DNA from: Naegleria gruberi
Lineage: Eukaryota
Strand: one strand, 5' to 3'
Length of the DNA stretch: 64,000 bases
NCBI GenBank assembly: GCA_000004985.1
Contig: GG738880.1
Shown: piece after piece, positions 46,195 through 64,000 of the stretch
Position numbering within the stretch: the first letter of the stretch is position 1
How the letters are laid out: every line of letters starts with the position of its first letter
The notes under the pieces: generated by a model
Told to the model about the DNA's origin: nothing
Databases searched by the model: none
The model's input: only the letters and a program-made list of their open reading frames with translations
Translations under genes and position numbers: made by a program

Positions 46195-47039
46195 ATCCAC
46201 ATCATGTGAAAAACAATAAAAACATGAAAATATAAGATATCCACGATTTTCACAAATTATGCTACAAGACTCGAAATTATACATTCAACAACATAATAAA
46301 CATTATGAATTGTTGTTTTATTGTTGTTTGATTTGTAATTGGGCTATGAATCAACTCTGTAGCATGAAATATCGGAACTTGGTAAATTGACAACATGATG
46401 AAAATCTGATAATAAATACCTCTCCTACCTACTATTGACCATTCCGAACAATAATACATTGACACTTTTCCAACTTGTCCAGTAGATCCAGCAGTGATGA
46501 TGAATTTAGTGAAAATTTTGACATTTCACCAAAATTACATTGCTAAAAATTAATTTCCACAAATACTATTATTATATTGATGGAAAACAATAATGATGAT
46601 GGTTGGTGAATGATCCGATGATGGAACACCAACTTGGGATTTTCCAGCATGAAAAATAAATTCCAATTTCATGATGATAATGAACCAATAAAAATTACTA
46701 TTATTATTACTATATAGATCATGTTGAGATGATGATGTGAAAGTTTGGTGGTTTCATGATGTAAAACCACTCCGAAAATCATGATGTCCTCCTTGAGTAG
46801 AAGAATGTTGAATATTTTTTTATGAAGTTTTTGTGAGAATGGCGTAGCAGTTGTATTATTGGTGAAGTTATGGTCTATGTCTTTCAAAATTAAGTCCATC
46901 ATGATGATAATCCACTAATAAAATTACTACTATTCAGATCATGTTGAGGGGTTCGATTTATCTCTTGTTTTACTGTAACAAGTATTGCGCCCAAAATTGT
47001 TAAGGTACTTCCCGTGTGCTAAACTCAAGCTCCAAAAAA
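46195..47039 (+). repeat. Copy A of a duplicated ~0.85-kb non-coding segment that lies upstream of the histidine-kinase 5' region.
   Basis: About 97-98% identical to 48291..49274 (copy B). Copy B carries an extra ~140 bp at about 48517..48656. Both copies run from CATCATGTGAAAA... to ...GATTATTTAGCGAGTAA. Confidence 0.85.
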
Positions 47040-48240
47040 ATGTTTGAAAATAAGCCACTAACAAACATGCAAGATATTAACTCTGGAAAAGATTATTTAG
47101 CGAGTAAAAGAAGGAAGGAATGATGTTATCGGAGAAGGAATTTATCAGTGATGATATTGAAATTAATGATAACACAAAAGCTACATCTTCAAAAACACTT
47201 TTCAATATTTCATCACCTTCGTTTAGGAAGAGATTGGAACTGGGAGAGGATGTGCCATTCTCCAATAATTTTAATAATAATGTAAATAATTCAAACAATA
47301 TTGAAAAACAACAAACGGAAACAAGTTCATCATCAACTACAACAACACCGAGACCATCATTCATCAAAGCACCTTCATTACCTTCATTATCTTTTCCTAT
47401 TAAGAAAAGTTCATCAGTTTCTGATGATGTTAAAGAGATTGAATCTAAATTGAATGCTAATTGCAAGAATGGTGTGGAAAGGGCAATGTTATACATGTTG
47501 GCAAACCGATTGAATGTCAAGTTGTTGATTGGAGTTCTATTTGTGTTATCTTTTTTAAATAGCCTTAAAACATTAAGTTTTAATCAGAATATTTTGAGTA
47601 TTGTCCTATTTCTTGTTCAATTATATACTAACTATCATAGGAAGAATATTGATATGGCCATGTCCTATGAGGAGACTTTTAAAAGATTGGATGGGCAGGA
47701 AATGCAGAGAATGGTTGTTTCCTTGGTTCTCTACACAACCAGAATACTATTCCTTCCCGAACATAACATGATGTTTATTCCAGTTCTTTTCCTTTGGTTT
47801 GCTGGAGCTAACAAGTTGTACATTTACTCAACTTTTCATGGGCTATTCCCAACATTTTACACAAGCTTTCTCTACATTATGTGTGCTTGCTACCATTCGT
47901 ACCATGAGTATATTTTGAATGGATACTCTGCTCGATTCATTGGAATCATTGAGCAATATACAGTTATGACTGGCTGTGTTTGGATGTTCTCCTATTATTT
48001 TATTAATGTGACTGGTTATTTGAAACACAAGGTAGATAAATTGCAAGACACTAGAAAAAGGTTGGAATCAGCATTAGACGCTCGTAGTCGTTTCATGGCC
48101 CATATTTCACACGAGTTTAGATGTCCAATAATGTCAAGTATAGGGTGCTTGGAGTTGTTAAAAGAAACTCCATTGAATGAAAAACAAAATGATTTGGTTG
48201 ACACAATTGTTTCTTCAAATAGTGTTCTTTTGCTTTGATG
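47040..48240 (+). CDS. Hybrid sensor histidine kinase, 5' part, copy 1, with a multi-TM sensor region and the HisKA H-box. It is truncated by the N-gap at 48241, and a 1-nt homopolymer frameshift near 47110 lies upstream of the ORF-track start 47120.
   Basis: H-box is SRFMAHISHEFRCPIMSSIGCLELLKETPLNEKQNDLVDTIV. Several hydrophobic helices lie upstream. Copy 2 (49275..) is in frame from MFENKPLTNMQD, whereas copy 1 has AGTAAAAGAAGG against AGTAAGAAGG in copy 2. Confidence 0.6.
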
Positions 48241-48290
48241 NNNNNNNNNNNNNNNNNNNNNNNNNNNNNNNNNNNNNNNNNNNNNNNNNN
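48241..48290. other. Assembly gap (50 N).
   Basis: A run of N. Flanking sequence shows the contig break falls inside the duplicated unit. Confidence 0.99.
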
Positions 48291-49274
48291 CATCATGTGA
48301 AAACAATAAAAACATGAAAATATAAGATATCCACGATTTTCACAAATTTTGTTACAAGACTCGAAATTATACATTCAACAACATAATAAACATTATGAAT
48401 TGTTGTTTTATTGTTGTTTGATTTGTAATTGGGCTATGAATCAACTCTGGTAGCATCAAATATCGGAACTTGGTAAATTGACAACATGATGAAAATCTGA
48501 TAATAAATATGATGTTTATTATCTATTTAAATAGTAGTACTAAAAGACATGATTCAAGTTGGTGAAGTACATGTTGAGTTATGGTCCATGTACTTTTTAA
48601 AAATTCACATGTACCTATCCCTATCATAACTTGACCAAAATTGATAAGAGAAAGTTCTCCTACCTACTATTGACCATTCCGAACAATAATACATTGACAC
48701 TTTTCCAACTTGTCCAGTAGATCCAGCAGTGATGATGAATTTAGTGAAAATTTTGACATTTCACCAAAATTACATTGCTAAAAATTAATTTCCACAAATA
48801 CTATTATTATATTGATGGAAAACAATAATGATGATGGTTGGTGAATGATCCGATGATGGAACACCAACTTGGGATTTTCCAGCATGAAAAATAAATTCCA
48901 ATTTCATGATGATAATGAACCAATAAAAATTACTATTATTATTACTATATAGATCATGTTGAGATGATGATGTGAAAGTTTGGTGGTTTCATGATGTAAA
49001 ACCACTCCGAAAATCATGATGTCCTCCTTGAGTAGAAGAATGTTGAATATTTTTTTATGAAGTTTTTGTGAGAATGGCGTAGCAGTTGTATTATTGGTGA
49101 AGTTATGGTCTATGTCTTTCAAAATTAAGTCCATCATGATGATAATCCACTAATAAAATTACTACTATTCAGATCATGTTGAGGGGTTCGATTTATCTCT
49201 TGTTTTACTGTAACAAGTATTGCGCCCAAAATTGTTAAGGTACTTCCCGTGTGCTAAACTCAAGCTCCAAAAAA
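48291..49274 (+). repeat. Copy B of the duplicated upstream non-coding segment, with a ~140-bp insertion relative to copy A.
   Basis: It aligns with 46195..47039. The extra block is at about 48517..48656. Confidence 0.85.
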
Positions 49275-49734
49275 ATGTTTGAAAATAAGCCACTAACAAA
49301 CATGCAAGATATTAACTCTGGAAAAGATTATTTAGCGAGTAAGAAGGAAGGAATGATGTTATCGGAGAAGGAATTTATCAGTGATGATATTGAAATTAAT
49401 GATAACACAAAAGCTACTTCTTCAAAAACACTTTTCAATATTTCATCACCTTCGTTTAGGAAGAGATTGGAACTGGGAGAGGATGTACATGTGCCATTCT
49501 CCAATAATTTTAATAATAATGTAAATAATTCAAACAATATTGAAAAACAACAAACGGAAACAAGTTCATCATCAACTACAACAACACCGAGACCATCATT
49601 CATCAAAGCACCATCATTACCTTCATTATCTTTTCCTATTAAGAAAAGTTCATCAGTTTCTGATGATGTTAAAGAGATTGAATCCAAATTGAATGCTAAT
49701 TGCAAGAATGGTGTGGAAAGGGCAATGTTATACA
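49275..49734 (+). CDS. Hybrid sensor histidine kinase, 5' part, copy 2, truncated by the N-gap at 49735.
   Basis: About 98% identical to 47040..47500. It has an in-frame ATG at 49275 and a 6-nt indel relative to copy 1 (GEDVHVPF against GEDVPF). The ORF-track ORF 49251..50996 spans the gap artificially. Confidence 0.6.
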
Positions 49735-50119
49735 NNNNNNNNNNNNNNNNNNNNNNNNNNNNNNNNNNNNNNNNNNNNNNNNNNNNNNNNNNNNNNNNNN
49801 NNNNNNNNNNNNNNNNNNNNNNNNNNNNNNNNNNNNNNNNNNNNNNNNNNNNNNNNNNNNNNNNNNNNNNNNNNNNNNNNNNNNNNNNNNNNNNNNNNNN
49901 NNNNNNNNNNNNNNNNNNNNNNNNNNNNNNNNNNNNNNNNNNNNNNNNNNNNNNNNNNNNNNNNNNNNNNNNNNNNNNNNNNNNNNNNNNNNNNNNNNNN
50001 NNNNNNNNNNNNNNNNNNNNNNNNNNNNNNNNNNNNNNNNNNNNNNNNNNNNNNNNNNNNNNNNNNNNNNNNNNNNNNNNNNNNNNNNNNNNNNNNNNNN
50101 NNNNNNNNNNNNNNNNNNN
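49735..50119. other. Assembly gap (385 N).
   Basis: A run of N. Confidence 0.99.
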
Positions 50120-50156
50120 ATGGCAAGTGTCAAGACCTGTCACATTGATGAAAAAA

Positions 50157-51187
50157 ATGAATAGAGAAGATGTTCTTCTAATGTTGCATGATAAACCGAA
50201 TGAAAATGCAAATAGCTTGTTTGAACTATTGAAAATTAGAATGATGACAAGCAAAACCTCTAAAATTTCAAATCAATTTACAAAAGCAATTCGTATTGAT
50301 AATTGTAAACATGTGGAAACGCTTGGAACGCCAAATAAGTATGGAAAGCCTGCACGAGGACTCAACAACAAATTCTTCTTCAATATTCCGATGGATATTA
50401 CTATTTCATACAGGCACGAAACAATTTATGTTTGCGACTACAAAAATTACAAAATTCAAACATTTGATTTGGCTACCAAACAATTTATCACTTCAATTTC
50501 GACAATTCCGACGTGCTTTATCTACATTCAAGTGGACGATCAATTTGATCAATTATTTGGATTAGGATTTGATCGTTCCTTATATGTGGGAAAATTTGAG
50601 AAACCAAGTAAGGGAAGAGGTGGATTAAGTTTTGCAAGTTTGGAACGATTGAAAATGTCAGTAATGGAAGAATGTGGTCAATTTTCAAAGATTTGTTTGG
50701 ATAGAGAAATGGGGAGATTATACTTTATGGAAAATTCAAGGCAATTCAGAATTGGAGTATTGAGAACGATGGATTTGAGTATTGTAAATTTGATGCAAGT
50801 TGATTTTGATGAACAAGATCCAAGTGATGGGGACAAAATATTGTATTTGGATGGAAGAGGCAATTTATGTATTCTTTCGTTCCCTCTTGTTAAAAGCATT
50901 CCCTTGTCAATTGTGAATTCAAGGAAACAAGCTCACTTTGGCCAATTTGAAACATTATTGAGTTTACAGAAAAGATTTCCAATGTGTTCAAGATAGTAAC
51001 TGAGAAATCATCTGGGAATATATTAATTTCTATACCAATTCCTTTAACATCAACTCCTATTACCATTCAAAAAGGTCATCATCAAACATGGATCTTTCAT
51101 TCTGCTTCTGGAATGGAAATTAATGAAATTGAAGGTGAATTATTAATTGTAGAAAAGAAATCCTTCACTATTAAAATATTCAAATAA
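50157..51187 (+). pseudogene. NHL-repeat (beta-propeller) protein gene, copy 1. It carries a 1-nt frameshift near 50958 relative to copy 2, which is either pseudogenisation or a homopolymer error.
   Basis: NHL-like blades are IYVCDYKNYKIQTFDLATKQFITSI, GRLYFMENSRQFRIGVL and GELLIVEKKSFTIKIF. Copy 1 reads CATTATTGAGTTT where copy 2 reads CATTATTTGAGTTT. The reading frame continues in ORF 50984..51187. Confidence 0.5.
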
Positions 51188-51188
51188 T

Positions 51189-53752
51189 TTACATGTAATC
51201 TACAACAGTTGTATGAGGTGGATAAACTTCCTGAACTTGATTGTTGACAGTTGAATAATATTGCTTGAACAATTCAAATCTGGTGTTCTTTCCAGAAGAT
51301 TCCAATATGTGAGCAAAATACCCAATGCTCTTAATCAATTTTCTGGCAGGATACGATTTGATGTATTCATCATTTTGAACAACAGCTGTCAAATTAGCTT
51401 CATAATCTCTGAGCATGTTAATAATTTCATCATTATTCAACCCTTCAAAGTTCTTGTCATAGAAGAAATATTTTCCAAACTCTGAGAATTTCTGATTTGC
51501 CTTTTGCTGTTCCAACTCGTACATCCATTCTTGAAATTTTGTTACAATTTTTGTAAACCTTTCAACTTACCATCACCTTCAATAGTATTTTCCTTTTCAA
51601 CTTCATAAACAACCGAAACTTTTCCTTCTTGTGAATTTTCAACAACTTCCATCAACTTGTCAACTGGTCTGGATACAAACTTTTTCAGAGTTGACTCATC
51701 CATTGTTCCCTCATCAGCCAACACATCACATCTCAAGTCGTCTGCCAAAAAAGCAAGTTTTTCAGCATTGATAGGAACTGAACCAACAACAGAAAATGTT
51801 CTAAATGAACTAGTTCCCAAATTTCCTGCATAGCACTTTCCACTACTGACTCCAATGGCACATCTGATATGGGTTTTCGATGTTTCATTGATTGTTACTA
51901 ATAATTTTCTCAATTTCAAAGCAGCTTCCAAAGCCAAAACATTTGACGATTTTCGACCATTTCCTTCCACAGACGAAACATAAATCTGATAATCATCCAC
52001 AGTAATAACTTGAAAATCACCTTGTATAGATTTAGAAACAGCACTCAACCCAGAAACAATCTTTGAAAATATGTGTCCAATATCAGCAACATTCAAATCT
52101 GTTGAAAAATCAATTAATTTGATTCTTACAACTGCTCCTTGTTTACAATTCAGACCAATTTTGAAAAGAGAATTTCCCACTTCTTGAACTTTGGATGCCA
52201 TTGAGGAAGTTCTTGAACTATTGTTACTAAAATGACGACTTCCATGAGATTCCAAATCTATTGAGGCAGCATCACTATTCGAAACTGGGTGATTCTTATG
52301 TTTCTTTGATTTGGTGTTGGCTTGGGATTCATCTGTTTTTTTGGTATTTTCTTCTTTCATATTTCTCAATTGTAAAAATACACTTTCTGGAATAAATGTC
52401 TTAATTTCGTTTAACCATACTGTCATTTCATATAAATAAAGGTAAATCAAATCGACTTCTTTAAACTTGCTTGCAGTAATATTCACCTGATCTAGTTCCA
52501 TAGTTTTGATTTTCATAAATTCTCTTTCTAAAATTGTAAATGGATTTGTGACAATGTGTCCAATAGTGATAGACATGATTACACCAACAATGATAATCAA
52601 AATGGTAATACCAACAGATACTCCAGTTGTAATATTTGTTACCATTTCAACTTCTTGCTTATCAACCACAATGAAAACATTCCATTCCAAGTTGACCAAT
52701 GTGAAATTTGACTTTACAATGAAAAAACCATCAAAGTCAATAAAAATTGGTGTGTTAGTCCACCCCTTATAATTCTGATAAACCCTGTTCAATAAACTTC
52801 CAGAACCCTTATCAATCAAGTCAAATAACGAAACTCTAGAACTTCCATCCAAAGCAGTAGTATTGATATTTCCACCAATGACAAGATTATTGGTTTCTGC
52901 CACAATCACATAACCACTAGTGAGTACTTGTACTGTTTTCAAAAAGCTTTCAATAATTCTCAATGAAATATTCGTTTTTGTAATGCCAACTACCTTTTTA
53001 ATTCCATTGCTATAATAGGTAGGATCATATAATTTGGCACAATAGTAAGTTGTATAACTTGGATTGCCAGGAATTGCATAAGGAATGCCGAATACACCAT
53101 CTAATCCCAAAGAGGAATAAAAACCAAAAGTAGTTTTCCAATAACTTTGAGCATTCACTTCATAATTAGGAGATGCCTTGACCAGTGACTTGGCAGTTGT
53201 GTTAGGAGTTGAAGTATCCAATGAAATTGCATATAACATAAATTCAGTCGTTGGTGTATGATACCAAACAACAATTTCATTGGGTGGAGCTCCGTAAACA
53301 TTGACACTGTCAAGACTGTCATTAAAAAATAAACCAATTCCGTATGGCTTGAAAGTGTTGTAATATTTGTAAAGATAGGCAAGCGATGGTTGACGAGGAA
53401 CAAGTCCTAAATTGTAATCCTCAGCCATTGACTCAGTTGCTGAAATATAAGGTTTCAGTTGACCGTTCATATAGTTCAGTACTGAACCACTGATGGTATG
53501 CATCAATTGAGTTGATAAGGAACTCAGGGCTTCTCGAGATCCTATGAAAGAAGATAACCAAATTAAAATTGAACAGCAAACTAATAGAGAAGTGATTAGA
53601 ATAATGATAAATGTTCTAACCGAAATGATTCCACCACATGTTGTTGGTTTGATTGGAGCTATTTTGGTTTTCTCCTCGGTTTCGTCTTCGTTGAGGAGAG
53701 GATTTTGTTCTTTGAGACTGTCTAGGGATGCTGTGAATGGTTGTATTTTCAT
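51189..53752 (-). CDS. Membrane sensor with a class-III nucleotidyl-cyclase homology domain (ACG-like), paralog 2. Exons are 51580..53752 and 51189..51538.
   Basis: TM1 is IIILITSLLVCCSILIWLSSFIG. An extracytoplasmic domain follows, then TM2 (VSVGITILIIIVGVIMSITIG). The cyclase-like blocks are VVRIKLIDFSTDL, QVITVDDYQIYVS and IRCAIGVSSGKCYAGNLGTSSFRTFSVVGSVPINAEKLA. A GTAAGT donor at 51579 and a TTTCAAG acceptor at 51539 give a 41-nt intron. It joins in frame to ORF 51189..51524, whose start (EWMYELEQQ) matches the EWLYELDNL tail block of paralog 1. Confidence 0.6.
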
Positions 53753-55002
53753 GATTAGTTTTGAATAGTTTTTTTAAAAATTTGAAATCATTTGAAAGGT
53801 AGTTTGATTCAATCTCGTTTGAAAATTTAGAAATCTCACCACATATGCGTTTATGGTGGAGATAACAACAATTACCTGTTTGAATATTTCCTTAACTTCT
53901 CCATTCTATTCACAACCCATCATATACTGTTAACTTTAAACGAAAATTTACAGCGCTCATTTAGAATGATTCAACTCTGTTCCCATCACTTGATGTTAAA
54001 CAACCAAATGTTTTTTCTACTTTGAAAGAGAATCTTCCTTAAAATTCGATAGGTGACAGAAATAAAAGGGTGTAGGTGTAAAAACGTCTCTTGTATCAAT
54101 AACGACCTGAGAGAACAATAGGTGACAGAAAAGAAAAAGATGTTGTTGCATTTCAGCTATCTCCCTTGATTTTTTTTGCTATAGTAAATTCGTTTATTTA
54201 AACATAGTTGTTTGGTAAATTACTTAGTGAAGATTCATATCATTGATTATATTTCTTATCGTCTATTAATGATGTAAATATGATGTTTTCATTTCTTATA
54301 TCTGTGGTCAGGTTCTCGGCGCATTTTTGTGATGCTTCCAAAAAACATGGAATGCTCCCAAAGCTGATTTACCTGTAGGGGTAATTGGATGCGCCAATAA
54401 CACCGATTTATTACTTAAGCAAATTCACTCAACTTCAACAAAGCGTATCTCAATAACAACACTGGATGTTAGAGAAACATACCGTATGGTCATTATTAAT
54501 TATGTTAACAATCATAATATCAAGTTTGTTACAGATTTGGCTCTTTACTTATCGAGAAAAGTGATTTCAAAATTTTCATATGTGGTAGTAAGACGAGCAT
54601 GTTTTCTTGGTTAATACAAATAACTGATATTCAATAAAACAGAATCTTGTAGAAAACATCAATTAGAACAAGAATAATAAATAATATTTTTATTTCACTA
54701 AGTATTAAATTTAATATTTCCTTTTTTGTAAGGAGCATTGCAAAAATACGGGAAAAACATTTCCACAGATATTGATAGATATTTAAAGGTTAAGGATAAC
54801 GGTCAAATTGAGTTGAATGGAAGTGAATATTGAGATATGTATACTACTGTTGAAGAAGTATCACCTTCACTATAATTACTGACATGAGTATAACAATTGA
54901 ACATATGATTCCTGTATCAATAATTCATTATTCAATGATTTTGATATGATGGGGTTGGATTAGATATCCACTTTTGGGTTTGGATCCCATGTCAACCCCT
55001 AT

Positions 55003-58000
55003 NNNNNNNNNNNNNNNNNNNNNNNNNNNNNNNNNNNNNNNNNNNNNNNNNNNNNNNNNNNNNNNNNNNNNNNNNNNNNNNNNNNNNNNNNNNNNNNNNN
55101 NNNNNNNNNNNNNNNNNNNNNNNNNNNNNNNNNNNNNNNNNNNNNNNNNNNNNNNNNNNNNNNNNNNNNNNNNNNNNNNNNNNNNNNNNNNNNNNNNNNN
55201 NNNNNNNNNNNNNNNNNNNNNNNNNNNNNNNNNNNNNNNNNNNNNNNNNNNNNNNNNNNNNNNNNNNNNNNNNNNNNNNNNNNNNNNNNNNNNNNNNNNN
55301 NNNNNNNNNNNNNNNNNNNNNNNNNNNNNNNNNNNNNNNNNNNNNNNNNNNNNNNNNNNNNNNNNNNNNNNNNNNNNNNNNNNNNNNNNNNNNNNNNNNN
55401 NNNNNNNNNNNNNNNNNNNNNNNNNNNNNNNNNNNNNNNNNNNNNNNNNNNNNNNNNNNNNNNNNNNNNNNNNNNNNNNNNNNNNNNNNNNNNNNNNNNN
55501 NNNNNNNNNNNNNNNNNNNNNNNNNNNNNNNNNNNNNNNNNNNNNNNNNNNNNNNNNNNNNNNNNNNNNNNNNNNNNNNNNNNNNNNNNNNNNNNNNNNN
55601 NNNNNNNNNNNNNNNNNNNNNNNNNNNNNNNNNNNNNNNNNNNNNNNNNNNNNNNNNNNNNNNNNNNNNNNNNNNNNNNNNNNNNNNNNNNNNNNNNNNN
55701 NNNNNNNNNNNNNNNNNNNNNNNNNNNNNNNNNNNNNNNNNNNNNNNNNNNNNNNNNNNNNNNNNNNNNNNNNNNNNNNNNNNNNNNNNNNNNNNNNNNN
55801 NNNNNNNNNNNNNNNNNNNNNNNNNNNNNNNNNNNNNNNNNNNNNNNNNNNNNNNNNNNNNNNNNNNNNNNNNNNNNNNNNNNNNNNNNNNNNNNNNNNN
55901 NNNNNNNNNNNNNNNNNNNNNNNNNNNNNNNNNNNNNNNNNNNNNNNNNNNNNNNNNNNNNNNNNNNNNNNNNNNNNNNNNNNNNNNNNNNNNNNNNNNN
56001 NNNNNNNNNNNNNNNNNNNNNNNNNNNNNNNNNNNNNNNNNNNNNNNNNNNNNNNNNNNNNNNNNNNNNNNNNNNNNNNNNNNNNNNNNNNNNNNNNNNN
56101 NNNNNNNNNNNNNNNNNNNNNNNNNNNNNNNNNNNNNNNNNNNNNNNNNNNNNNNNNNNNNNNNNNNNNNNNNNNNNNNNNNNNNNNNNNNNNNNNNNNN
56201 NNNNNNNNNNNNNNNNNNNNNNNNNNNNNNNNNNNNNNNNNNNNNNNNNNNNNNNNNNNNNNNNNNNNNNNNNNNNNNNNNNNNNNNNNNNNNNNNNNNN
56301 NNNNNNNNNNNNNNNNNNNNNNNNNNNNNNNNNNNNNNNNNNNNNNNNNNNNNNNNNNNNNNNNNNNNNNNNNNNNNNNNNNNNNNNNNNNNNNNNNNNN
56401 NNNNNNNNNNNNNNNNNNNNNNNNNNNNNNNNNNNNNNNNNNNNNNNNNNNNNNNNNNNNNNNNNNNNNNNNNNNNNNNNNNNNNNNNNNNNNNNNNNNN
56501 NNNNNNNNNNNNNNNNNNNNNNNNNNNNNNNNNNNNNNNNNNNNNNNNNNNNNNNNNNNNNNNNNNNNNNNNNNNNNNNNNNNNNNNNNNNNNNNNNNNN
56601 NNNNNNNNNNNNNNNNNNNNNNNNNNNNNNNNNNNNNNNNNNNNNNNNNNNNNNNNNNNNNNNNNNNNNNNNNNNNNNNNNNNNNNNNNNNNNNNNNNNN
56701 NNNNNNNNNNNNNNNNNNNNNNNNNNNNNNNNNNNNNNNNNNNNNNNNNNNNNNNNNNNNNNNNNNNNNNNNNNNNNNNNNNNNNNNNNNNNNNNNNNNN
56801 NNNNNNNNNNNNNNNNNNNNNNNNNNNNNNNNNNNNNNNNNNNNNNNNNNNNNNNNNNNNNNNNNNNNNNNNNNNNNNNNNNNNNNNNNNNNNNNNNNNN
56901 NNNNNNNNNNNNNNNNNNNNNNNNNNNNNNNNNNNNNNNNNNNNNNNNNNNNNNNNNNNNNNNNNNNNNNNNNNNNNNNNNNNNNNNNNNNNNNNNNNNN
57001 NNNNNNNNNNNNNNNNNNNNNNNNNNNNNNNNNNNNNNNNNNNNNNNNNNNNNNNNNNNNNNNNNNNNNNNNNNNNNNNNNNNNNNNNNNNNNNNNNNNN
57101 NNNNNNNNNNNNNNNNNNNNNNNNNNNNNNNNNNNNNNNNNNNNNNNNNNNNNNNNNNNNNNNNNNNNNNNNNNNNNNNNNNNNNNNNNNNNNNNNNNNN
57201 NNNNNNNNNNNNNNNNNNNNNNNNNNNNNNNNNNNNNNNNNNNNNNNNNNNNNNNNNNNNNNNNNNNNNNNNNNNNNNNNNNNNNNNNNNNNNNNNNNNN
57301 NNNNNNNNNNNNNNNNNNNNNNNNNNNNNNNNNNNNNNNNNNNNNNNNNNNNNNNNNNNNNNNNNNNNNNNNNNNNNNNNNNNNNNNNNNNNNNNNNNNN
57401 NNNNNNNNNNNNNNNNNNNNNNNNNNNNNNNNNNNNNNNNNNNNNNNNNNNNNNNNNNNNNNNNNNNNNNNNNNNNNNNNNNNNNNNNNNNNNNNNNNNN
57501 NNNNNNNNNNNNNNNNNNNNNNNNNNNNNNNNNNNNNNNNNNNNNNNNNNNNNNNNNNNNNNNNNNNNNNNNNNNNNNNNNNNNNNNNNNNNNNNNNNNN
57601 NNNNNNNNNNNNNNNNNNNNNNNNNNNNNNNNNNNNNNNNNNNNNNNNNNNNNNNNNNNNNNNNNNNNNNNNNNNNNNNNNNNNNNNNNNNNNNNNNNNN
57701 NNNNNNNNNNNNNNNNNNNNNNNNNNNNNNNNNNNNNNNNNNNNNNNNNNNNNNNNNNNNNNNNNNNNNNNNNNNNNNNNNNNNNNNNNNNNNNNNNNNN
57801 NNNNNNNNNNNNNNNNNNNNNNNNNNNNNNNNNNNNNNNNNNNNNNNNNNNNNNNNNNNNNNNNNNNNNNNNNNNNNNNNNNNNNNNNNNNNNNNNNNNN
57901 NNNNNNNNNNNNNNNNNNNNNNNNNNNNNNNNNNNNNNNNNNNNNNNNNNNNNNNNNNNNNNNNNNNNNNNNNNNNNNNNNNNNNNNNNNNNNNNNNNNN

Positions 58001-59675
58001 NNNNNNNNNNNNNNNNNNNNNNNNNNNNNNNNNNNNNNNNNNNNNNNNNNNNNNNNNNNNNNNNNNNNNNNNNNNNNNNNNNNNNNNNNNNNNNNNNNNN
58101 NNNNNNNNNNNNNNNNNNNNNNNNNNNNNNNNNNNNNNNNNNNNNNNNNNNNNNNNNNNNNNNNNNNNNNNNNNNNNNNNNNNNNNNNNNNNNNNNNNNN
58201 NNNNNNNNNNNNNNNNNNNNNNNNNNNNNNNNNNNNNNNNNNNNNNNNNNNNNNNNNNNNNNNNNNNNNNNNNNNNNNNNNNNNNNNNNNNNNNNNNNNN
58301 NNNNNNNNNNNNNNNNNNNNNNNNNNNNNNNNNNNNNNNNNNNNNNNNNNNNNNNNNNNNNNNNNNNNNNNNNNNNNNNNNNNNNNNNNNNNNNNNNNNN
58401 NNNNNNNNNNNNNNNNNNNNNNNNNNNNNNNNNNNNNNNNNNNNNNNNNNNNNNNNNNNNNNNNNNNNNNNNNNNNNNNNNNNNNNNNNNNNNNNNNNNN
58501 NNNNNNNNNNNNNNNNNNNNNNNNNNNNNNNNNNNNNNNNNNNNNNNNNNNNNNNNNNNNNNNNNNNNNNNNNNNNNNNNNNNNNNNNNNNNNNNNNNNN
58601 NNNNNNNNNNNNNNNNNNNNNNNNNNNNNNNNNNNNNNNNNNNNNNNNNNNNNNNNNNNNNNNNNNNNNNNNNNNNNNNNNNNNNNNNNNNNNNNNNNNN
58701 NNNNNNNNNNNNNNNNNNNNNNNNNNNNNNNNNNNNNNNNNNNNNNNNNNNNNNNNNNNNNNNNNNNNNNNNNNNNNNNNNNNNNNNNNNNNNNNNNNNN
58801 NNNNNNNNNNNNNNNNNNNNNNNNNNNNNNNNNNNNNNNNNNNNNNNNNNNNNNNNNNNNNNNNNNNNNNNNNNNNNNNNNNNNNNNNNNNNNNNNNNNN
58901 NNNNNNNNNNNNNNNNNNNNNNNNNNNNNNNNNNNNNNNNNNNNNNNNNNNNNNNNNNNNNNNNNNNNNNNNNNNNNNNNNNNNNNNNNNNNNNNNNNNN
59001 NNNNNNNNNNNNNNNNNNNNNNNNNNNNNNNNNNNNNNNNNNNNNNNNNNNNNNNNNNNNNNNNNNNNNNNNNNNNNNNNNNNNNNNNNNNNNNNNNNNN
59101 NNNNNNNNNNNNNNNNNNNNNNNNNNNNNNNNNNNNNNNNNNNNNNNNNNNNNNNNNNNNNNNNNNNNNNNNNNNNNNNNNNNNNNNNNNNNNNNNNNNN
59201 NNNNNNNNNNNNNNNNNNNNNNNNNNNNNNNNNNNNNNNNNNNNNNNNNNNNNNNNNNNNNNNNNNNNNNNNNNNNNNNNNNNNNNNNNNNNNNNNNNNN
59301 NNNNNNNNNNNNNNNNNNNNNNNNNNNNNNNNNNNNNNNNNNNNNNNNNNNNNNNNNNNNNNNNNNNNNNNNNNNNNNNNNNNNNNNNNNNNNNNNNNNN
59401 NNNNNNNNNNNNNNNNNNNNNNNNNNNNNNNNNNNNNNNNNNNNNNNNNNNNNNNNNNNNNNNNNNNNNNNNNNNNNNNNNNNNNNNNNNNNNNNNNNNN
59501 NNNNNNNNNNNNNNNNNNNNNNNNNNNNNNNNNNNNNNNNNNNNNNNNNNNNNNNNNNNNNNNNNNNNNNNNNNNNNNNNNNNNNNNNNNNNNNNNNNNN
59601 NNNNNNNNNNNNNNNNNNNNNNNNNNNNNNNNNNNNNNNNNNNNNNNNNNNNNNNNNNNNNNNNNNNNNNNNNNN
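55003..59675. other. Large assembly gap (4,673 N).
   Basis: A run of N. The poly-X ORFs 54974..59707 and 54992..59698 are artefacts of translating N. Confidence 0.99.
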
Positions 59676-60605
59676 ATAAAATGAGCGAGTTGGAGCATAA
59701 TCTTTGATTTTATGTCAAAGGTCTATAGTAAAATGATAGAGTTGACAACTCAATATCTACTGAACCAAAATTAATGAAATTGATATTATATGCTAATTAG
59801 AGTGTCTACATATCATGGTATTAATTTCAGTGAAAATGGAGTTGTTTCTATATCTTTCAGATTTCCAGCCATTCTCTTGAAATATCACCATGTACTATCT
59901 ACTGAATGCATTTGTTGAAATGAAATTATATAATTTGATGAAATTACACTTTATTTGAGATGTAGAACACGATATTATCATTTATTTTGAGATTGGTAAC
60001 TTTTCCTATAGTGTCATCCTTAATTGTCTTAATTGACTAAAAAAGGTCAAGGAGATATTTCAAAATATAAAATAAATTATATTTTCGAGATGTACTATTG
60101 ATTTCCAATCGATTGATATGTATTTTGTTGATTGACGAAGTGGTTCTCTATTTGAAGATTTCCTCCTTGATCTTTAAAGACAACCTTGAAATTTCACCCT
60201 TTACCTTACTGAAAGATAGAATATTCTCCAAAATGTCTGAAAATTGAACCATATACATTATTTGAGATGTTGAACATGGTGGTAAAGTTGCATAGAGTGG
60301 TCATTTTCCAGATTTTCATCCATGTCCACAGTTGACTAATTGGTATGATAGAGTTGAAATCATGAACATGAAAGTGAAAATAAACTTGATTTTCTATCTC
60401 TACTCGTAGAGTGAAGCATTTTCATGTATATATTGTTGGTTGAAGTGATGTATTTGATAGAGTTAGTGTGACTTGTCTTTCCTTAAAGTCAACCATAAAA
60501 TATCAACATTTACCTTCCCATTATACCATTTCTGATTATTAAGACATGAAATTGAATTCTATATCATTATATATCATGTACATCATTTTGGTAAAGTTTT
60601 AATAG

Positions 60606-60906
60606 GTGGTTTGGGTTTGGGTTTGGGTTTGGGTTTGGGTTTGGGTTTGGGTTTGGGTTTGGGTTTGGGTTTGGGTTTGGGTTTGGGTTTGGGTTTGGGT
60701 TTGGGTTTGGGTTTGGGTTTGGGTTTGGGTTTGGGTTTGGGTTTGGGTTTGGGTTTGGGTTTGGGTTTGGGTTTGGGTTTGGGTTTGGGTTTGGGTTTGG
60801 GTTTGGGTTTGGGTTTGGGTTTGGGTTGGGTTTGGGTTTGGGTTTGGGTTTGGGTTTGGGTTTGGGTTTGGGTTTGGGTTTGGGTTTGGGTTTGGGTTTG
60901 GGTTAA
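60606..60906 (+). repeat. (GGGTTT)n hexanucleotide array of about 50 units with one GGGTT variant. Telomere-like, G-rich strand on the plus strand, and it ends in a gap.
   Basis: Perfect 6-bp periodicity with a single 5-mer variant near 60826. The three 'ORFs' over it (GLGL, WVWV, PKPK/TQTQ) are artefacts of the open frames of a hexamer repeat. Confidence 0.9.
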
Positions 60907-60956
60907 NNNNNNNNNNNNNNNNNNNNNNNNNNNNNNNNNNNNNNNNNNNNNNNNNN
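60907..60956. other. Assembly gap (50 N).
   Basis: A run of N. Confidence 0.99.
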
Positions 60957-61995
60957 AAGGATGAGGATCCAAATGTAACAACCTTTAATTTGTTCGAATC
61001 GTTGAAGGCCATGACGAACATTATTTCAGGTTACGCTTCCACATTTAAGGTAAATTTGAAATTGGAAATTGATTCCAAGATTAAGGACATGTTCGTTCAC
61101 TCAAATTCTTCCAAACTCCACCAAATATTATTAAATTTATTGACAAACGCTGTAAAGGCTTCAAAGCAAGGTGATTCTGTATGGTTAAAAAGTAGACTAT
61201 TGGAAGATTATGGAGATTCTGTAACTGTCAGATTTATTTGTGAAGATACTGGATGCGGAATTCCACAAAATTTGATTTCTTCTATTTTTGAACCATTCGT
61301 GCAATTACAAAACAGCTCACAATCCAAAGTGCCAAGTTCTGGACTCGGACTCACTACTGTTTCACATCTAATCAAATCGATGGATGGTCAAATTAGCGTT
61401 CTCTCTCAAGTCGGAAAAGGAAGTATTTTCACAGTTGATTTGCCATTCAAATTAAAACCAAGCAAGTTCCAAGAAAATAGTGATCGTAATGGTAATCCAG
61501 AAGATAGGCGATCAAAACTTCACCTTAGCGTTCATAAGAGCTATTTAACAATGATGACAGACTTGGAAAAGAATGAAAAAGAAAAGGAGAAAAAGTCAAA
61601 GTTTAATTCTAAAATATTGATTGCAGAAGATAATCCTATTAACAGAAAAGTTATTGTCAAGATGATAAATAGTTTAGGGCACGAAACAGATTATGTTTGT
61701 GATGGAAAGGAACTGGTTGAGAACTTTAATCCAAAAACTCACAAGGTTGTAATTACAGATATGGTATGTTGAAAAATCAATATTTAATGTATGCTCATCT
61801 AATTAGAATATGCCAAATATGAATGGATTGGAAGCTACTAAGGTTCTAAGAGAAAAATATGGAGATTCATTCAAGATTTATTTATTAACAGGTAATGTGA
61901 CAGTCTCTTTGACAGATGTTGATGATATGGGTTTATTGGATGGCATTCTAACAAAGCCCTGTTCTAAACAAGAGCTTGAGAAATGTATTACGTAA
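60957..61995 (+). CDS. Hybrid sensor histidine kinase, 3' part (HATPase_c catalytic domain plus receiver domain). The 5' end is lost in the gap. Exons are 60957..61763 and 61807..61995.
   Basis: N-box is LLNLLTNAVKAS, G1 is EDTGCGIP, G2 is SGLGLT. The receiver opens with KILIAEDNPINRKVIVKMINSLGHETDYVCDGKELVENF...VVITDM. A 43-nt GTATGT..AATTAG intron leads in frame to NMPNMNGLEATKVLREK...IYLLTGN...ILTKP, giving the D-x2-MP receiver signature. A TAA stop is at 61993. Confidence 0.8.
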
Positions 61996-62040
61996 AGTGA
62001 ATTTGGCAAGTGTCAAGACCTGTCAAATTGATGAAAAAAA

Positions 62041-62932
62041 ATGAATAGAGAAGATGTTCTTCTAATGTTGCATGATAAACCGAATGAAAATGCAAATAGC
62101 TTGTTTGAACTATTGAAAATTAGAATGATGACAAGCAAAACCTCTAAAATTTCAAATCAATTTACAAAAGTAATTCGTATTGATAATTGTAAACATGTGG
62201 AAACGCTTGGAACGCCAAATAAATATGGAAAGCCTGCACGAGGACTCAACAACAAATTCTTCTTCAATATTCCGATGGATATTACTATTTCATACAGGCA
62301 CGAAACAATTTATGTTTGCGACTACAAAAATTACAAAATTCAAACATTTGATTTGGCTACCAAACAATTTATCACTTCAATTTCGACAATTCCGACGTGC
62401 TTTATCTACATTCAAGTGGATGATCAATTTGATCAATTATTTGGATTAGGATTTGATCGTTCCTTATATGTGGGAAAATTTGAGAAACCAAGTAAGGGAA
62501 GAGGTGGATTAAGTTTTGCAAGTTTGGAAAGTATAATCTTCCCATTTCTCTATCCATACAAATCTTTGAAAATTGACCACATTCTTCCATTAGTGACATT
62601 TTCAATCGTTTATGGAAAATTCAAGGCAATTCAGAATTGGAGTATTGAGAACGATGGATTTGAATATTGTAAATTTGATGCAAGTTGATTTTGATGAACA
62701 AGATCCAAGTGATGGGGACAAAGTATTGTATTTGGATGGAAGAGGCAATTTATGTATTCTTTCATTCCCTCTTGTTAAAAGTATACCCTTGTCAATTGTG
62801 AATTCAAGGAAACAAGCTCACTTTGGCCAATTTGAAACATTATTTGAGTTTACAGAAAAGATTTCAAATGTGTTCAAGATAGCAACTGAGCAATCGTCTG
62901 GGAATATATTAATTTCCATACCAATTCCTTTG
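62041..62932 (+). pseudogene. NHL-repeat protein gene, copy 2, lying directly downstream of the HK 3' end. It is disrupted by an ~81-bp internal inversion (62530..62610) and truncated by the gap at 62933.
   Basis: About 97% identical to 50157..51050. The segment 62530..62610 is the reverse complement of copy 1 at about 50648..50728. The correct peptide KMSLMEECGQFSKICMDREMGRLYF is encoded on the minus strand (ORF 62402..62605). The forward frame is broken into ORFs 62041..62688 and 62612..62989. Confidence 0.5.
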
Positions 62933-62982
62933 NNNNNNNNNNNNNNNNNNNNNNNNNNNNNNNNNNNNNNNNNNNNNNNNNN
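62933..62982. other. Assembly gap (50 N).
   Basis: A run of N. Confidence 0.99.
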
Positions 62983-63679
62983 TTATTGAAATACCATGAT
63001 TAACTGATCCATTATAACACATTATAATTGAAAGATTTTAAAATTAATATGATTTGACAATCTTGACATTTATAATTCCCATGATTACACTCCTGACATG
63101 TTGAATGATTTCAAATTGTCATGAAACTGATACAGTAGTGTTTATTCACCTTCACTAAGGTCCTATATCAGTTTCATGATGATCTGTATAGTGGATGTGA
63201 TTGTCACATCCCTATAGGTGTCAAGTAGATCAGCCATGTAGCATGTATGATATGGATGAATGTCAAAATGATATTAATGTATTTCATTATCATGTATAGA
63301 TGTATTGGAAGTGAATTGAAGTGGTATAGATTTCTATCTTCAATGTTAGTATAGGTGAGTTGACAAGTTGAATATTAAATATCCTGATATGATACCTAAG
63401 TATTTGAAATTGATATATATTGTTATTAACATGATTTGCAAGGTGATATATTGATATGAAATGATTTTGAAATGTTTTCATTGATATTCTAATTGTCTAA
63501 TCTATTATATGAAATTAACTTATATAAGTCATTATAATGATGTAATATTATGTTATAATATGATTATATATTCAATTTGGAGTATATTGATATATAATAT
63601 ATTGATTTATAATGAGTATTTATTGAGATAATCAATTAAGATGAATAAAAGTCAAAATGTTGGGTCTGACCTTAGTCGT

Positions 63680-64000
63680 GGGTTTGGGTTTGGGTTTGGG
63701 TTTGGGTTTGGGTTTGGGTTTGGGTTTGGGTTTGGGTTTGGGTTGGGTTGGGTTGGGTTTGGGTTTGGGTTTGGGTTTGGGTTTGGGTTTGGGTTTGGGT
63801 TTGGGTTTGGGTTTGGGTTTGGGTTTGGGTTTGGGTTTGGGTTTGGGTTTGGGTTTGGGTTTGGGTTTGGGTTTGGGTTTGGGTTTGGGTTTGGGTTTGG
63901 GTTTGGGTTTGGGTTTGGGTTTGGGTTTGGGTTTGGGTTTGGGTTTGGGTTTGGGTTTGGGTTTGGGTTTGGGTTTGGGTTTGGGTTTGGGTTTGGGTTT
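63680..64000 (+). repeat. (GGGTTT)n array with three GGGTT variants, running to the window end. Candidate terminal telomeric repeat with the G-strand oriented 5'->3' toward the end.
   Basis: More than 50 perfect hexamer units. It is preceded by a ~700-bp AT-rich ORF-free spacer (62983..63679). It has the same orientation as the array at 60606. Confidence 0.85.

What the first reader, a model, noticed from the sequence alone, without database searches (positions are those of the whole stretch)
62530..62610. Short (~81-bp) inversion inside the coding sequence of NHL gene copy 2
In copy 2, the stretch 62530..62610 is the near-exact reverse complement (3-4 mismatches) of copy 1 at about 50648..50728. 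The peptide KMSLMEECGQFSKICMDREMGRLYF is therefore encoded on the minus strand, as ORF 62402..62605, and the forward ORF breaks. Such a small precise inversion within an exon is unusual. It could mark a pseudogene, a programmed or recombination-mediated flip, or a local assembly error in a repeat-rich subtelomere.
Basis: seen in the sequence. Interest (0 to 1): 0.55.

Follow-up and report, generated by a model that had tools for sequence, protein, structure and literature searches.

The report
Tiny inversion in redundant Naegleria contig
A 78-bp stretch of an NHL-like gene really is flipped in one of two near-identical versions of a chromosome-end locus in the Naegleria gruberi draft genome, but this is an ordinary gene-breaking micro-inversion (or a single-clone artefact) sitting on a small unmerged contig, not a switch or a true second gene.

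Summary
Window 62528-62610 is the reverse complement of 50644-50726 (83 bp, 3 mismatches, E=1e-32), with collinear homology on both sides. The core is 78 bp (62531-62608 versus 50646-50723). Its junctions share only AA/TT(T) microhomology and show a net 1-bp gain.

The window is the end of a Sanger draft scaffold of Naegleria gruberi NEG-M. "Copy 2" lies on a 1976-bp contig bounded by two 50-N gaps and placed after a telomere array. That contig carries the only catalytic half of a hybrid histidine kinase, whose N-terminal half ends contig A at 48240. It is therefore a redundant bridge contig of the same locus, most likely the other haplotype, not an independent gene.

The differences between the two versions are biased towards synonymous changes (9 synonymous, 7 non-synonymous; pN/pS 0.19; p=0.0014). 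They are real divergence, not sequencing noise.

No inverted repeats or hairpin potential flank the breakpoints, so a programmed flip is not supported. An assembler mis-join is also unlikely, because one Sanger read spans both junctions.

Best reading: a recent microhomology-mediated micro-inversion that truncates one allele. A single-clone artefact cannot be excluded without reads. Interest is low.

The parts
62531..62608 (.). Inverted 78-bp core in the contig-E version ('copy 2') of the NHL-like gene
   Evidence: It is the reverse complement of 50646-50723 with 3 mismatches.
62528..62610 (.). Maximal inverted match (83 bp), including the junction microhomology (AAA on the left, TT on the right). 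One extra base relative to copy 1 lies in these runs.
   Evidence: BLASTN minus-strand HSP 50644-50726 = 62610-62528, E=1.4e-32. A 1-bp insertion is placed at 62528 by global alignment.
50646..50723 (+). Counterpart segment in copy 1, in the ancestral (coding) orientation. It encodes RLKMSVMEECGQFSKICLDREMGRLY in frame with both flanks.
   Evidence: Continuous ORF through the segment.
50157..51188 (+). NHL-like gene, copy 1 (contig C). The ORF is open from 50157 to 50996. A 1-bp deletion in a T run near 50957 shifts the frame, and the reading frame resumes and runs to 51188.
   Evidence: One NHL blade lies at aa 74-115.
62041..62688 (+). Truncated forward ORF of the contig-E version (215 aa): 163 normal residues, 27 antisense-derived residues, then a +1 frameshift tail.
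62402..62605 (-). Incidental minus-strand ORF (67 aa) that carries the displaced peptide KMSLMEECGQFSKICMDREMGRLYF.
   Evidence: tblastn places aa 163-190 of copy 1 on the minus strand at 62611-62528.
62612..62932 (+). Downstream remainder of the contig-E coding sequence. It is still an intact ORF of 107 codons up to the contig end, in a frame shifted by +1.
60957..62932 (.). Contig E: a 1976-bp contig between two 50-N gaps, placed after a telomere array. It is a redundant bridge contig (kinase 3' half plus the 5' three-quarters of the NHL-like gene).
   Evidence: N runs. Overlap with contig C. Fit to contig A.
60957..61995 (+). C-terminal half of a hybrid histidine kinase (HATPase_c plus receiver domain, with a 43-nt intron at 61764-61806). 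This is the only such coding sequence in the window.
   Evidence: Pfam hits. tblastn. Intron sequence.
47120..48240 (+). N-terminal part plus HisKA domain of the same kinase, cut off by the gap at 48241. It joins to contig E with only about 8-13 residues missing.
   Evidence: Pfam HisKA positions 1-48 of 66. The concatenated query aligns as one kinase to PDB kinases.
48291..49734 (.). Contig B: a second redundant contig, equal to 46200-47495 at about 98% identity. It has a roughly 130-bp insertion and an in-frame 6-bp indel.
60608..60904 (+). Internal (GGGTTT)n telomere array ending contig D.
   Evidence: TTTGGG is the candidate N. gruberi telomere repeat (PMC3622300).
63679..64000 (+). Second (GGGTTT)n telomere array ending contig F.

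Best explanation
The window is the end of a Sanger draft scaffold of the heterozygous diploid amoeba Naegleria gruberi NEG-M. One subtelomeric locus (a hybrid histidine kinase followed by an NHL-like gene) is present in two diverged versions that the assembler merged only in part. Contigs A and C carry one version. The small contigs B and E carry pieces of the other, most likely the second haplotype, and were parked in or after the scaffold with minimal 50-N gaps.

In the contig-E version, a single mutational event inverted 78 bp of coding sequence in place. The event used 2-3 nt of inverted microhomology (AA...TT) and left a 1-bp junctional gain. This signature fits either a replication template switch onto the opposite strand and back (four-point/MMBIR type) or re-ligation of a two-break fragment by end joining.

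The result is a null allele: 163 normal residues, then 27 nonsense residues, then a frameshift and a stop. The 78-bp heterology is also the likely reason the two versions could not be merged into one contig.

What is shown: the inversion, its junction anatomy, the ORF truncation, the redundancy of contig E, and the real (selection-shaped) divergence of the two versions.

What is inferred: that the two versions are alleles, that the event happened in Naegleria and not in a clone, its mechanism, and that it is recent.
For: The inverted match has collinear flanks, and the junctions were read base by base.

The organism and assembly are identified. P0001 = XP_002675081.1 of N. gruberi lies on a 416,450-bp scaffold and matches the window. 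The assembly is Sanger-based (PMC8040595). N. gruberi is heterozygous and diploid (PMC9928731). The telomere repeat is TTTGGG (PMC3622300).

Contig E is bounded by 50-N gaps. Its kinase half continues the kinase broken at 48240, with about 8-13 aa missing. It is the only HATPase_c/REC sequence in the window. No near-identical annotated N. gruberi protein exists; the best is 66% identical.

The copy1/copy2 differences are 9 synonymous and 7 non-synonymous, with pN/pS 0.19 and binomial p=0.0014. Contig B differs from contig A by an in-frame 6-bp indel. These are real variants, not sequencing noise.

The inverted block carries 3 variants in 78 bp, which matches the divergence of the right flank (3.4%). 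The block therefore belongs to the diverged version.

The downstream 107 codons are still open, so the event is recent.

Micro-inversions of 5-125 bp are a known, fairly common mutation class, and 65 lie in human exons (PMC3227671). Template switching can invert a fragment in place (PMC5453318).
Against: No reads or independent assemblies could be examined. Exact-sequence look-ups and two metagenome scans found nothing.

Contigs B, D, E and F are each only 1-2 kb, about one or two Sanger reads long. The inversion may therefore rest on a single clone.

An intact downstream ORF and low pN/pS are expected equally if the inversion arose in the clone.

Synonymous divergence of 7-9% to the right of the inversion is high for alleles and would also fit paralogues.

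Contig E is scaffolded next to a different telomere-adjacent sequence (F) than copy 1 (D), and the two are unrelated. A simple allelic model does not predict this.
Confidence: 0.5

Rival explanations
1. Clone-level artefact. The inversion arose in the E. coli plasmid or fosmid clone (or during library construction) and entered the consensus because this poorly covered chromosome end is represented by one clone at that point. Under this reading the Naegleria genome is collinear in both versions.
For: Contig E is 1976 bp and lies among several 1-2 kb contigs and five gaps within 16 kb, which implies very low coverage. The coding sequence downstream of the inversion is perfectly open for 107 codons, and the divergence is still selection-shaped. 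This is what an unbroken gene would look like. No independent sequence confirms the inversion.
Against: An in-place inversion needs two precise junctions 78 bp apart with the flanks kept in order. Ordinary chimeric clones have one junction and join unrelated DNA. No inverted repeat or hairpin is present that would promote such a rearrangement in E. coli. By the author's rough estimate, natural micro-inversions should outnumber such artefacts in a heterozygous 41-Mb genome. The inversion also gives a ready reason why the contig stayed unmerged.
Confidence: 0.25
2. Real micro-inversion, but in a true paralogue. A recent segmental duplication of the kinase/NHL block sits at a different chromosome end (contig E then F then telomere). 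The identical middle part of the two copies was collapsed by the assembler.
For: The scaffold has two telomere arrays with unrelated adjacent sequence, D versus F. Synonymous divergence of 7-9% right of the inversion is high for alleles. Divergence is strongly heterogeneous, 5/526 left of the inversion versus 17/404 from it rightwards, with Fisher p=0.0017. This would fit gene conversion between paralogues stopping at the heterology.
Against: Only one kinase catalytic half is present in the window, and none is near-identical among annotated N. gruberi proteins. The scaffolder linked contigs B and E to this same scaffold. The pattern of alternating collapsed and split segments is typical of heterozygous diploid assemblies.
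Confidence: 0.2
3. Programmed or recombinase-mediated invertible segment (a phase-variation-like switch) within the gene.
For: Only the bare fact of a precise inversion.
Against: No flanking inverted repeats beyond 2-3 nt. No structure-forming potential. The junctions are inexact, with a 1-bp gain. The flipped state is frameshifted and gives no alternative product. The inverted block has accumulated the same divergence as its flank, so it is not being flipped back and forth between otherwise identical molecules.
Confidence: 0.02
4. Assembler mis-join: reads were laid out in the wrong orientation.
For: The region is fragmented and redundant.
Against: In a Sanger assembly, reads of several hundred bp span both junctions. 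An overlap-layout assembler cannot join reads through 2-3 nt. Collinearity resumes for 323 bp after the block.
Confidence: 0.03

Closest known systems
Ultramicro/micro-inversions between closely related genomes (Hara & Imanishi 2011, PMC3227671: 2,377 inversions of 5-125 bp between human and chimpanzee, 65 within exons)
   Same: A short segment (78-83 bp, within the 5-125 bp range) is inverted in place and buried inside otherwise collinear, roughly 97-99% identical sequence. It lies inside a protein-coding exon.
   Different: Here the comparison is between two versions within one draft assembly (alleles or very recent duplicates), not between species. The event is unverified by reads. It lies towards the large end of the size range.
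Short-range template switching (four-point model, Loytynoja & Goldman 2017, PMC5453318) and the MMBIR model for micro-inversions (Potapova et al. 2022, PMC8755829)
   Same: [quoted passage not shown] There is minimal microhomology at both switch points and a 1-bp junctional gain. The model includes a case that inverts a fragment only.
   Different: The 59 'definite' human-chimpanzee micro-inversions of Potapova et al. are 17-33 nt and all are flanked by perfect or near-perfect inverted repeats. This one is 78 nt and has only AA/TT at its ends. It does not fit the classical quasi-palindrome route, and two-break end joining explains it equally well.
Unmerged haplotigs / redundant contigs in heterozygous Sanger draft assemblies
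   Same: Small contigs are bounded by minimal-size gaps and duplicate adjacent sequence at 96-99% identity. They differ by indels or a structural variant that blocks merging. The unique part of contig E fills a gap in the main path.
   Different: The contig was parked beyond a telomere array, about 12 kb from its proper place. Allelic status is not proven.
Site-specific invertible DNA switches (Hin/Gin/Fim-type, shufflons)
   Same: Only the outcome is shared: a defined segment is found in the opposite orientation.
   Different: There are no inverted-repeat recombination sites and no exact junctions. Neither a functional alternative reading frame nor a eukaryotic precedent at this scale is known.

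Membership tests
Micro-inversion (ultramicro inversion, 125 bp or less) | An internal segment is reverse-complement identical, with collinear homology on both sides | tested here: met
   the minus-strand HSP of 83 bp is flanked by plus-strand HSPs of 526 and 323 bp.
Micro-inversion (ultramicro inversion, 125 bp or less) | Length of 125 bp or less | tested here: met
   78-bp core, 83-bp maximal match.
Micro-inversion (ultramicro inversion, 125 bp or less) | Present in the organism's DNA (supported by independent reads or molecules) | not testable with these tools
   No reads are available. Exact look-ups and metagenome scans were empty.
Template-switch event (four-point model) | The replaced fragment equals the reverse complement of a nearby fragment (here, of itself) | tested here: met
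Template-switch event (four-point model) | Microhomology at the switch points | tested here: inconclusive
   Only 2-3 nt (AA/AAA and TT/TTT), which is also compatible with end joining.
Classical quasi-palindrome / inverted-repeat-flanked micro-inversion (Ripley; Potapova et al.) | Perfect or near-perfect inverted repeats flanking the inverted spacer | tested here: not met
   no inverted-repeat pair of 7 nt or more brackets 50646-50723; no excess folding energy.
Site-specific invertible switch | Inverted-repeat recombination sites at both ends | tested here: not met
Site-specific invertible switch | Both orientations give a defined functional state | tested here: not met
   The inverted state is frameshifted and truncated at 215 aa.
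Site-specific invertible switch | Recombinase encoded nearby | not tested
   Only a few neighbouring ORFs were scanned against Pfam. None was a recombinase.
Redundant/haplotig contig | A gap-bounded small contig overlaps the main path at high identity | tested here: met
   62004-62931 equals 50121-51045, with 50-N gaps on both sides.
Redundant/haplotig contig | Its unique part fits a gap of the main path | tested here: met
   the kinase HisKA (end of contig A) plus HATPase_c/REC (start of contig E) form one protein with about 8-13 aa missing.
Redundant/haplotig contig | The two versions are alleles at one chromosomal position | not testable with these tools
   This needs phased long reads.
NHL-repeat protein (Pfam PF01436) | Reaches the Pfam gathering score | tested here: not met
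   14.5 bits against a cut-off of 20, one repeat at aa 75-103.
NHL-repeat protein (Pfam PF01436) | Sequence relatives are NHL proteins | tested here: met
   307 hits at E<=1e-3, all through query aa 65-118; six of the seven hits sampled carry 4-6 NHL repeats; the seventh, P0002, had no Pfam hit.
NHL-repeat protein (Pfam PF01436) | Six-bladed beta-propeller fold | tested here: inconclusive
   The single-sequence AlphaFold2 model has pLDDT 31. No internal repeat was detected by BLASTP.

The most novel reading that the evidence does not exclude
The two versions are the two homologous chromosome ends of diploid N. gruberi, and they differ structurally. They differ by a 130-bp indel, by a 78-bp exon inversion, and by entirely different terminal sequence with separate telomere addition (contig D versus contig F). 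The inversion also marks the edge of a mitotic gene-conversion or loss-of-heterozygosity tract, because divergence jumps from about 1% to about 4% exactly there. If so, a tiny heterology acted as a barrier to homogenisation at a Naegleria subtelomere.
Probability: 0.15. Interest if true: 0.35.

Novelty: new member of a known kind. Interest (0 to 1): 0.15.

Why it matters
The value is mainly practical.

- The apparent second NHL gene and the internal telomere are products of a fragmented heterozygous Sanger assembly.
- The annotated gene NAEGRDRAFT_69842 is a chimera built across a gap.
- The hybrid histidine kinase at this locus is split over two contigs that lie 12 kb apart in the record.

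If the inversion is real, it is one more example of a small microhomology-mediated inversion knocking out an allele. [quoted passage not shown] It does not point to a new mechanism.

Tried and rejected
Flanking inverted repeats at the breakpoints: none of 7 nt or more was found.

Hairpin or cruciform potential of the segment with and without flanks: no better than shuffles.

Independent evidence for either orientation:
- Exact-sequence look-ups of the broken ORF, the minus-strand ORF, the copy-1 ORF and the kinase exon found none in the collection.
- The look-up of encoding contigs for P0001 found nothing on record.
- The search for related loci on JGI metagenomes found no relatives.
- An exact 23-mer from the right flank had no hit in the metagenome scan.

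An outgroup for the orientation was sought. The only closer relative, P0002 (71% identity, a 623-bp ENA contig), covers just the N-terminal 90 aa.

The AlphaFold2 single-sequence model of copy 1 was unusable at pLDDT 31. BLASTP of the putative second blade against the recognised NHL blade gave no alignment. The idea that the inverted block cuts a propeller blade therefore rests only on a motif seen by eye (GRLYF..RI..V).

Intronisation of the inverted block was checked. In-frame GT..AG pairs exist (for example 62531..62642, 112 nt), but a third of all such pairs would be in frame by chance and nothing supports their use.

The Fritz-Laylin 2010 genome paper and the 2011 review are not held in the library. 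The figures on coverage and heterozygosity that I recall from them are not used as evidence.

Full report
**1.

A BLASTN of the window against itself gives three adjoining matches between the two regions:
- 50121-50645 matches 62004-62529 on the plus strand (99.0% over 526 bp).
- 50644-50726 matches 62610-62528 on the minus strand (83 bp, 3 mismatches, E=1.4e-32).
- 50724-51045 matches 62609-62931 on the plus strand (96.6% over 323 bp).

Read base by base, the unambiguous inverted core is 78 bp. It is CGATTG...ATTATAC at 50646-50723 and GTATAAT...CAATCG at 62531-62608. In copy 1 the core is flanked by AA on the left and TTT on the right. In copy 2 the flanks are AAA and TTT. The breakpoints are therefore ambiguous by 2-3 nt of inverted microhomology, and copy 2 is one base longer.

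The minus-strand ORF 62402-62605 with the peptide KMSLMEECGQFSKICMDREMGRLYF exists. tblastn places residues 163-190 of the copy-1 protein on the minus strand at 62611-62528.

The forward ORF is not stopped inside the block. It reads 27 antisense-derived codons, and the extra base then shifts the frame, so it ends at 62688 (215 aa).

**2. What the window is**

The reconstructed protein has one close database relative, P0001. P0001 is XP_002675081.1 / NAEGRDRAFT_69842 of Naegleria gruberi, on a 416,450-bp scaffold.

Several facts from the literature fix the context:
- The (GGGTTT)n arrays at 60608-60904 and 63679-64000 match the candidate N. gruberi telomere repeat TTTGGG (PMC3622300).
- The only N. 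gruberi assembly listed is the Sanger assembly GCA_000004985 of strain NEG-M (PMC8040595), with 1977 contigs in 784 scaffolds (PMC6125883).
- N. gruberi is described as heterozygous and diploid (PMC9928731).

The window contains five N runs: 48241-48290 (50 N), 49735-50119 (385 N), 55003-59675 (4673 N), 60907-60956 (50 N) and 62933-62982 (50 N). These divide it into six contigs:
- A: 1-48240
- B: 48291-49734
- C: 50120-55002
- D: 59676-60906, ending in a telomere array
- E: 60957-62932
- F: 62983-64000, ending in a telomere array

**3. 'Copy 2' is a redundant bridge contig, not a demonstrated second gene**

Contig A ends inside a histidine-kinase gene. ORF 47120-48238 matches Pfam HisKA positions 1-48 of 66 and is cut off by the gap. 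Contig E begins with the HATPase_c and receiver domains of a hybrid kinase.

When the end of A is concatenated with the start of E, the pair aligns to solved histidine kinases as one continuous protein. Only about 8-13 residues are missing at the joint.

Contig E holds the only HATPase_c/REC coding sequence in the window. The nearest annotated N. gruberi protein is only 66% identical and lies on another scaffold.

Contig C starts in the kinase/NHL intergenic region. It overlaps the last 928 bp of contig E.

Contig B is a second redundant piece. It equals 46200-47495 at about 98% identity. It carries a roughly 130-bp unique insertion and an in-frame 6-bp indel in the kinase N-terminus, EDVPFS versus EDVHVPFS.

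So one locus (kinase then NHL-like gene) is represented by two diverged versions. They are split where they differ (A versus B; C versus the right part of E) and single where they do not. This is the usual picture of a partly collapsed heterozygous region.

I infer that the three 50-N gaps are floor values for contigs that the scaffolder expected to abut or overlap.

The annotated protein P0001 is a chimera. It joins the kinase N-terminus of contig B to the NHL-like gene of contig C across the 385-N gap.

**4. The differences between the two versions are biological, not noise**

After un-inverting the block, the two versions differ at 22 positions. Within the coding sequence there are 9 synonymous and 7 non-synonymous substitutions. 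This gives pS 0.051, pN 0.0099 and pN/pS 0.19. The excess of synonymous changes over random expectation has binomial p=0.0014. Random base-calling errors would not show this bias.

The inverted block carries 3 differences in 78 bp (3.8%). That is similar to the right flank (3.4%) and unlike the left flank (about 1%). The step in divergence at the inversion is significant: 5/526 left versus 17/404 from the inversion rightwards, Fisher p=0.0017. The inverted block therefore belongs to the diverged version. It is not copy-1 sequence pasted in backwards.

Downstream of the block, the contig-E version is still an open frame for 107 codons up to the contig end. Either the inversion is recent relative to the divergence, or it is not present in the organism.

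Copy 1 has its own defect. A 1-bp deletion in a T run near 50957 ends its ORF at 50996, and the frame resumes and runs to 51188. I cannot tell whether this is a sequencing error or real.

**5. How it arose**

No inverted repeat of 7 nt or more brackets the breakpoints in the ancestral arrangement. The region has no more DNA-folding potential than shuffled controls, with z-scores of +1.57, -0.64 and -0.32.

This excludes a recombinase-type invertible switch. It also excludes the classical quasi-palindrome route that accounts for the 17-33 nt 'definite' micro-inversions of Potapova et al., all of which have flanking inverted repeats (PMC8755829).

The junction anatomy is 2-3 nt of inverted microhomology plus a 1-bp gain. 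Two origins fit it.

(a) An inter-strand replication template switch and return, as in the four-point model, which includes a case that inverts a fragment only (PMC5453318):
- The nascent ...GGAA end primes on the AAA that precedes GTATAAT on the opposite strand.
- It copies through ...CAATCGTT.
- It then returns through the TT of TTTATGG.
- This reproduces the observed sequence, including the extra base.

(b) Two double-strand breaks about 80 bp apart, with the fragment re-ligated in reverse by end joining.

The sequence cannot separate these two origins.

**6. Real event or artefact**

An assembler mis-join is unlikely. Sanger reads span both junctions, and an overlap-layout assembler cannot join reads through 2-3 nt. 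The inversion therefore existed in at least one sequenced clone.

Whether it exists in Naegleria cannot be decided here. Contigs B, D, E and F are each only 1-2 kb, about one or two reads long. Coverage is evidently very thin, and a rearrangement in a single clone could have reached the consensus.

Against an artefact, an in-place inversion needs two precise junctions with the flanks kept in order. Chimeric clones do not produce this. Natural inversions of 5-125 bp are a well-documented mutation class, with 2,377 between human and chimpanzee and 65 in exons (PMC3227671).

My estimates are:
- About 0.7 that the inversion is real. This splits into about 0.5 on the alternative haplotype and about 0.2 on a true paralogue at another chromosome end.
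- About 0.25 that it is a clone artefact.
- About 0.05 in total for a mis-join or a programmed flip.

**7. What it does**

If real, it is a null allele of an NHL-like gene of unknown function. The 'NHL' label is weak but defensible:
- Pfam NHL scores 14.5 bits against a cut-off of 20, for one repeat at aa 75-103.
- An exhaustive phmmer search finds 307 proteins at E<=1e-3, all through query residues 65-118.
- Six of the seven hits sampled carry 4-6 Pfam NHL repeats; the seventh, P0002, had no Pfam hit.

Whether the inverted block lies in a second blade could not be shown.

**8. Novelty and score**

This is a known kind of mutation in a draft assembly with known weaknesses. It is a new instance, not a new kind.

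The most interesting reading that remains possible concerns the two homologous chromosome ends. They may differ structurally, with different terminal sequence and separate telomeres (D versus F are unrelated). The inversion may also mark the boundary of a gene-conversion or loss-of-heterozygosity tract. That is speculative (about 0.15) and of moderate interest.

Overall interest is 0.15.

Noticed in passing
window 60608-60904 and 63679-64000: Two (GGGTTT)n telomere arrays lie in the same orientation within one scaffold. The first is internal and is followed by a 50-N gap and two more contigs. The 0.7-0.9 kb next to each array (59676-60607 versus 62983-63678) are unrelated. Either two alternative chromosome ends or a scaffolding error has been strung together. 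Both arrays contain occasional GGGTT pentamer variants.
   Followed up: partly
window 49251-50996 (+), spanning the 385-N gap 49735-50119: The annotated N. gruberi protein XP_002675081.1 / NAEGRDRAFT_69842 (P0001, 402 aa) is a chimeric gene model. It joins the kinase N-terminus from redundant contig B to the NHL-like gene of contig C, treating the assembly gap as an intron.
   Followed up: yes
window 48291-49734 versus 46200-47495: Contig B duplicates the region upstream of, and the first part of, the histidine-kinase gene at about 98% identity. It has a roughly 130-bp unique insertion (48510-48640) and an in-frame 6-bp indel (EDVPFS versus EDVHVPFS). This is a second sign of two diverged versions of the locus.
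   Followed up: partly
window 47120-48240 (+) and 60957-61995 (+): A hybrid histidine kinase (HisKA, HATPase_c, receiver) is split between contig A and contig E, which lie 12.7 kb apart in the record. Only about 8-13 residues are missing at the joint. A 43-nt GT..AG intron lies at 61764-61806 in the receiver domain.
   Followed up: yes
window about 50957: Copy 1 of the NHL-like gene has a 1-bp deletion in a T run (TTATTGAG versus TTATTTGAG in contig E). This ends its ORF at 50996, and the frame resumes and runs to 51188. It is either a sequencing error or a second independent inactivating mutation.
   Followed up: partly
window 62004-62931 versus 50121-51045: Divergence between the two versions jumps at the inversion, from 5 differences in 526 bp on the left to 17 in 404 bp from the inversion rightwards (Fisher p=0.0017). 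Possible causes are a gene-conversion or loss-of-heterozygosity tract ending at the heterology, or a mixed-haplotype consensus on the left.
   Followed up: partly
window 41172-43661 (+) and 51542-53752 (-): Two large intron-less ORFs (829 and 736 aa) look similar by eye in layout: an N-terminal transmembrane segment, a long extracellular-like region, a second transmembrane segment and a C-terminal domain. Neither has a Pfam hit at E<=1e-3. They may be paralogous receptor-like proteins of an undescribed family.
   Followed up: no
P0002 (ENA metagenome contig of 623 bp): A 123-aa environmental protein fragment is 71% identical to the first 90 residues of the NHL-like protein. It presumably comes from a related heterolobosean. 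It is the only close relative outside the N. gruberi reference.
   Followed up: partly
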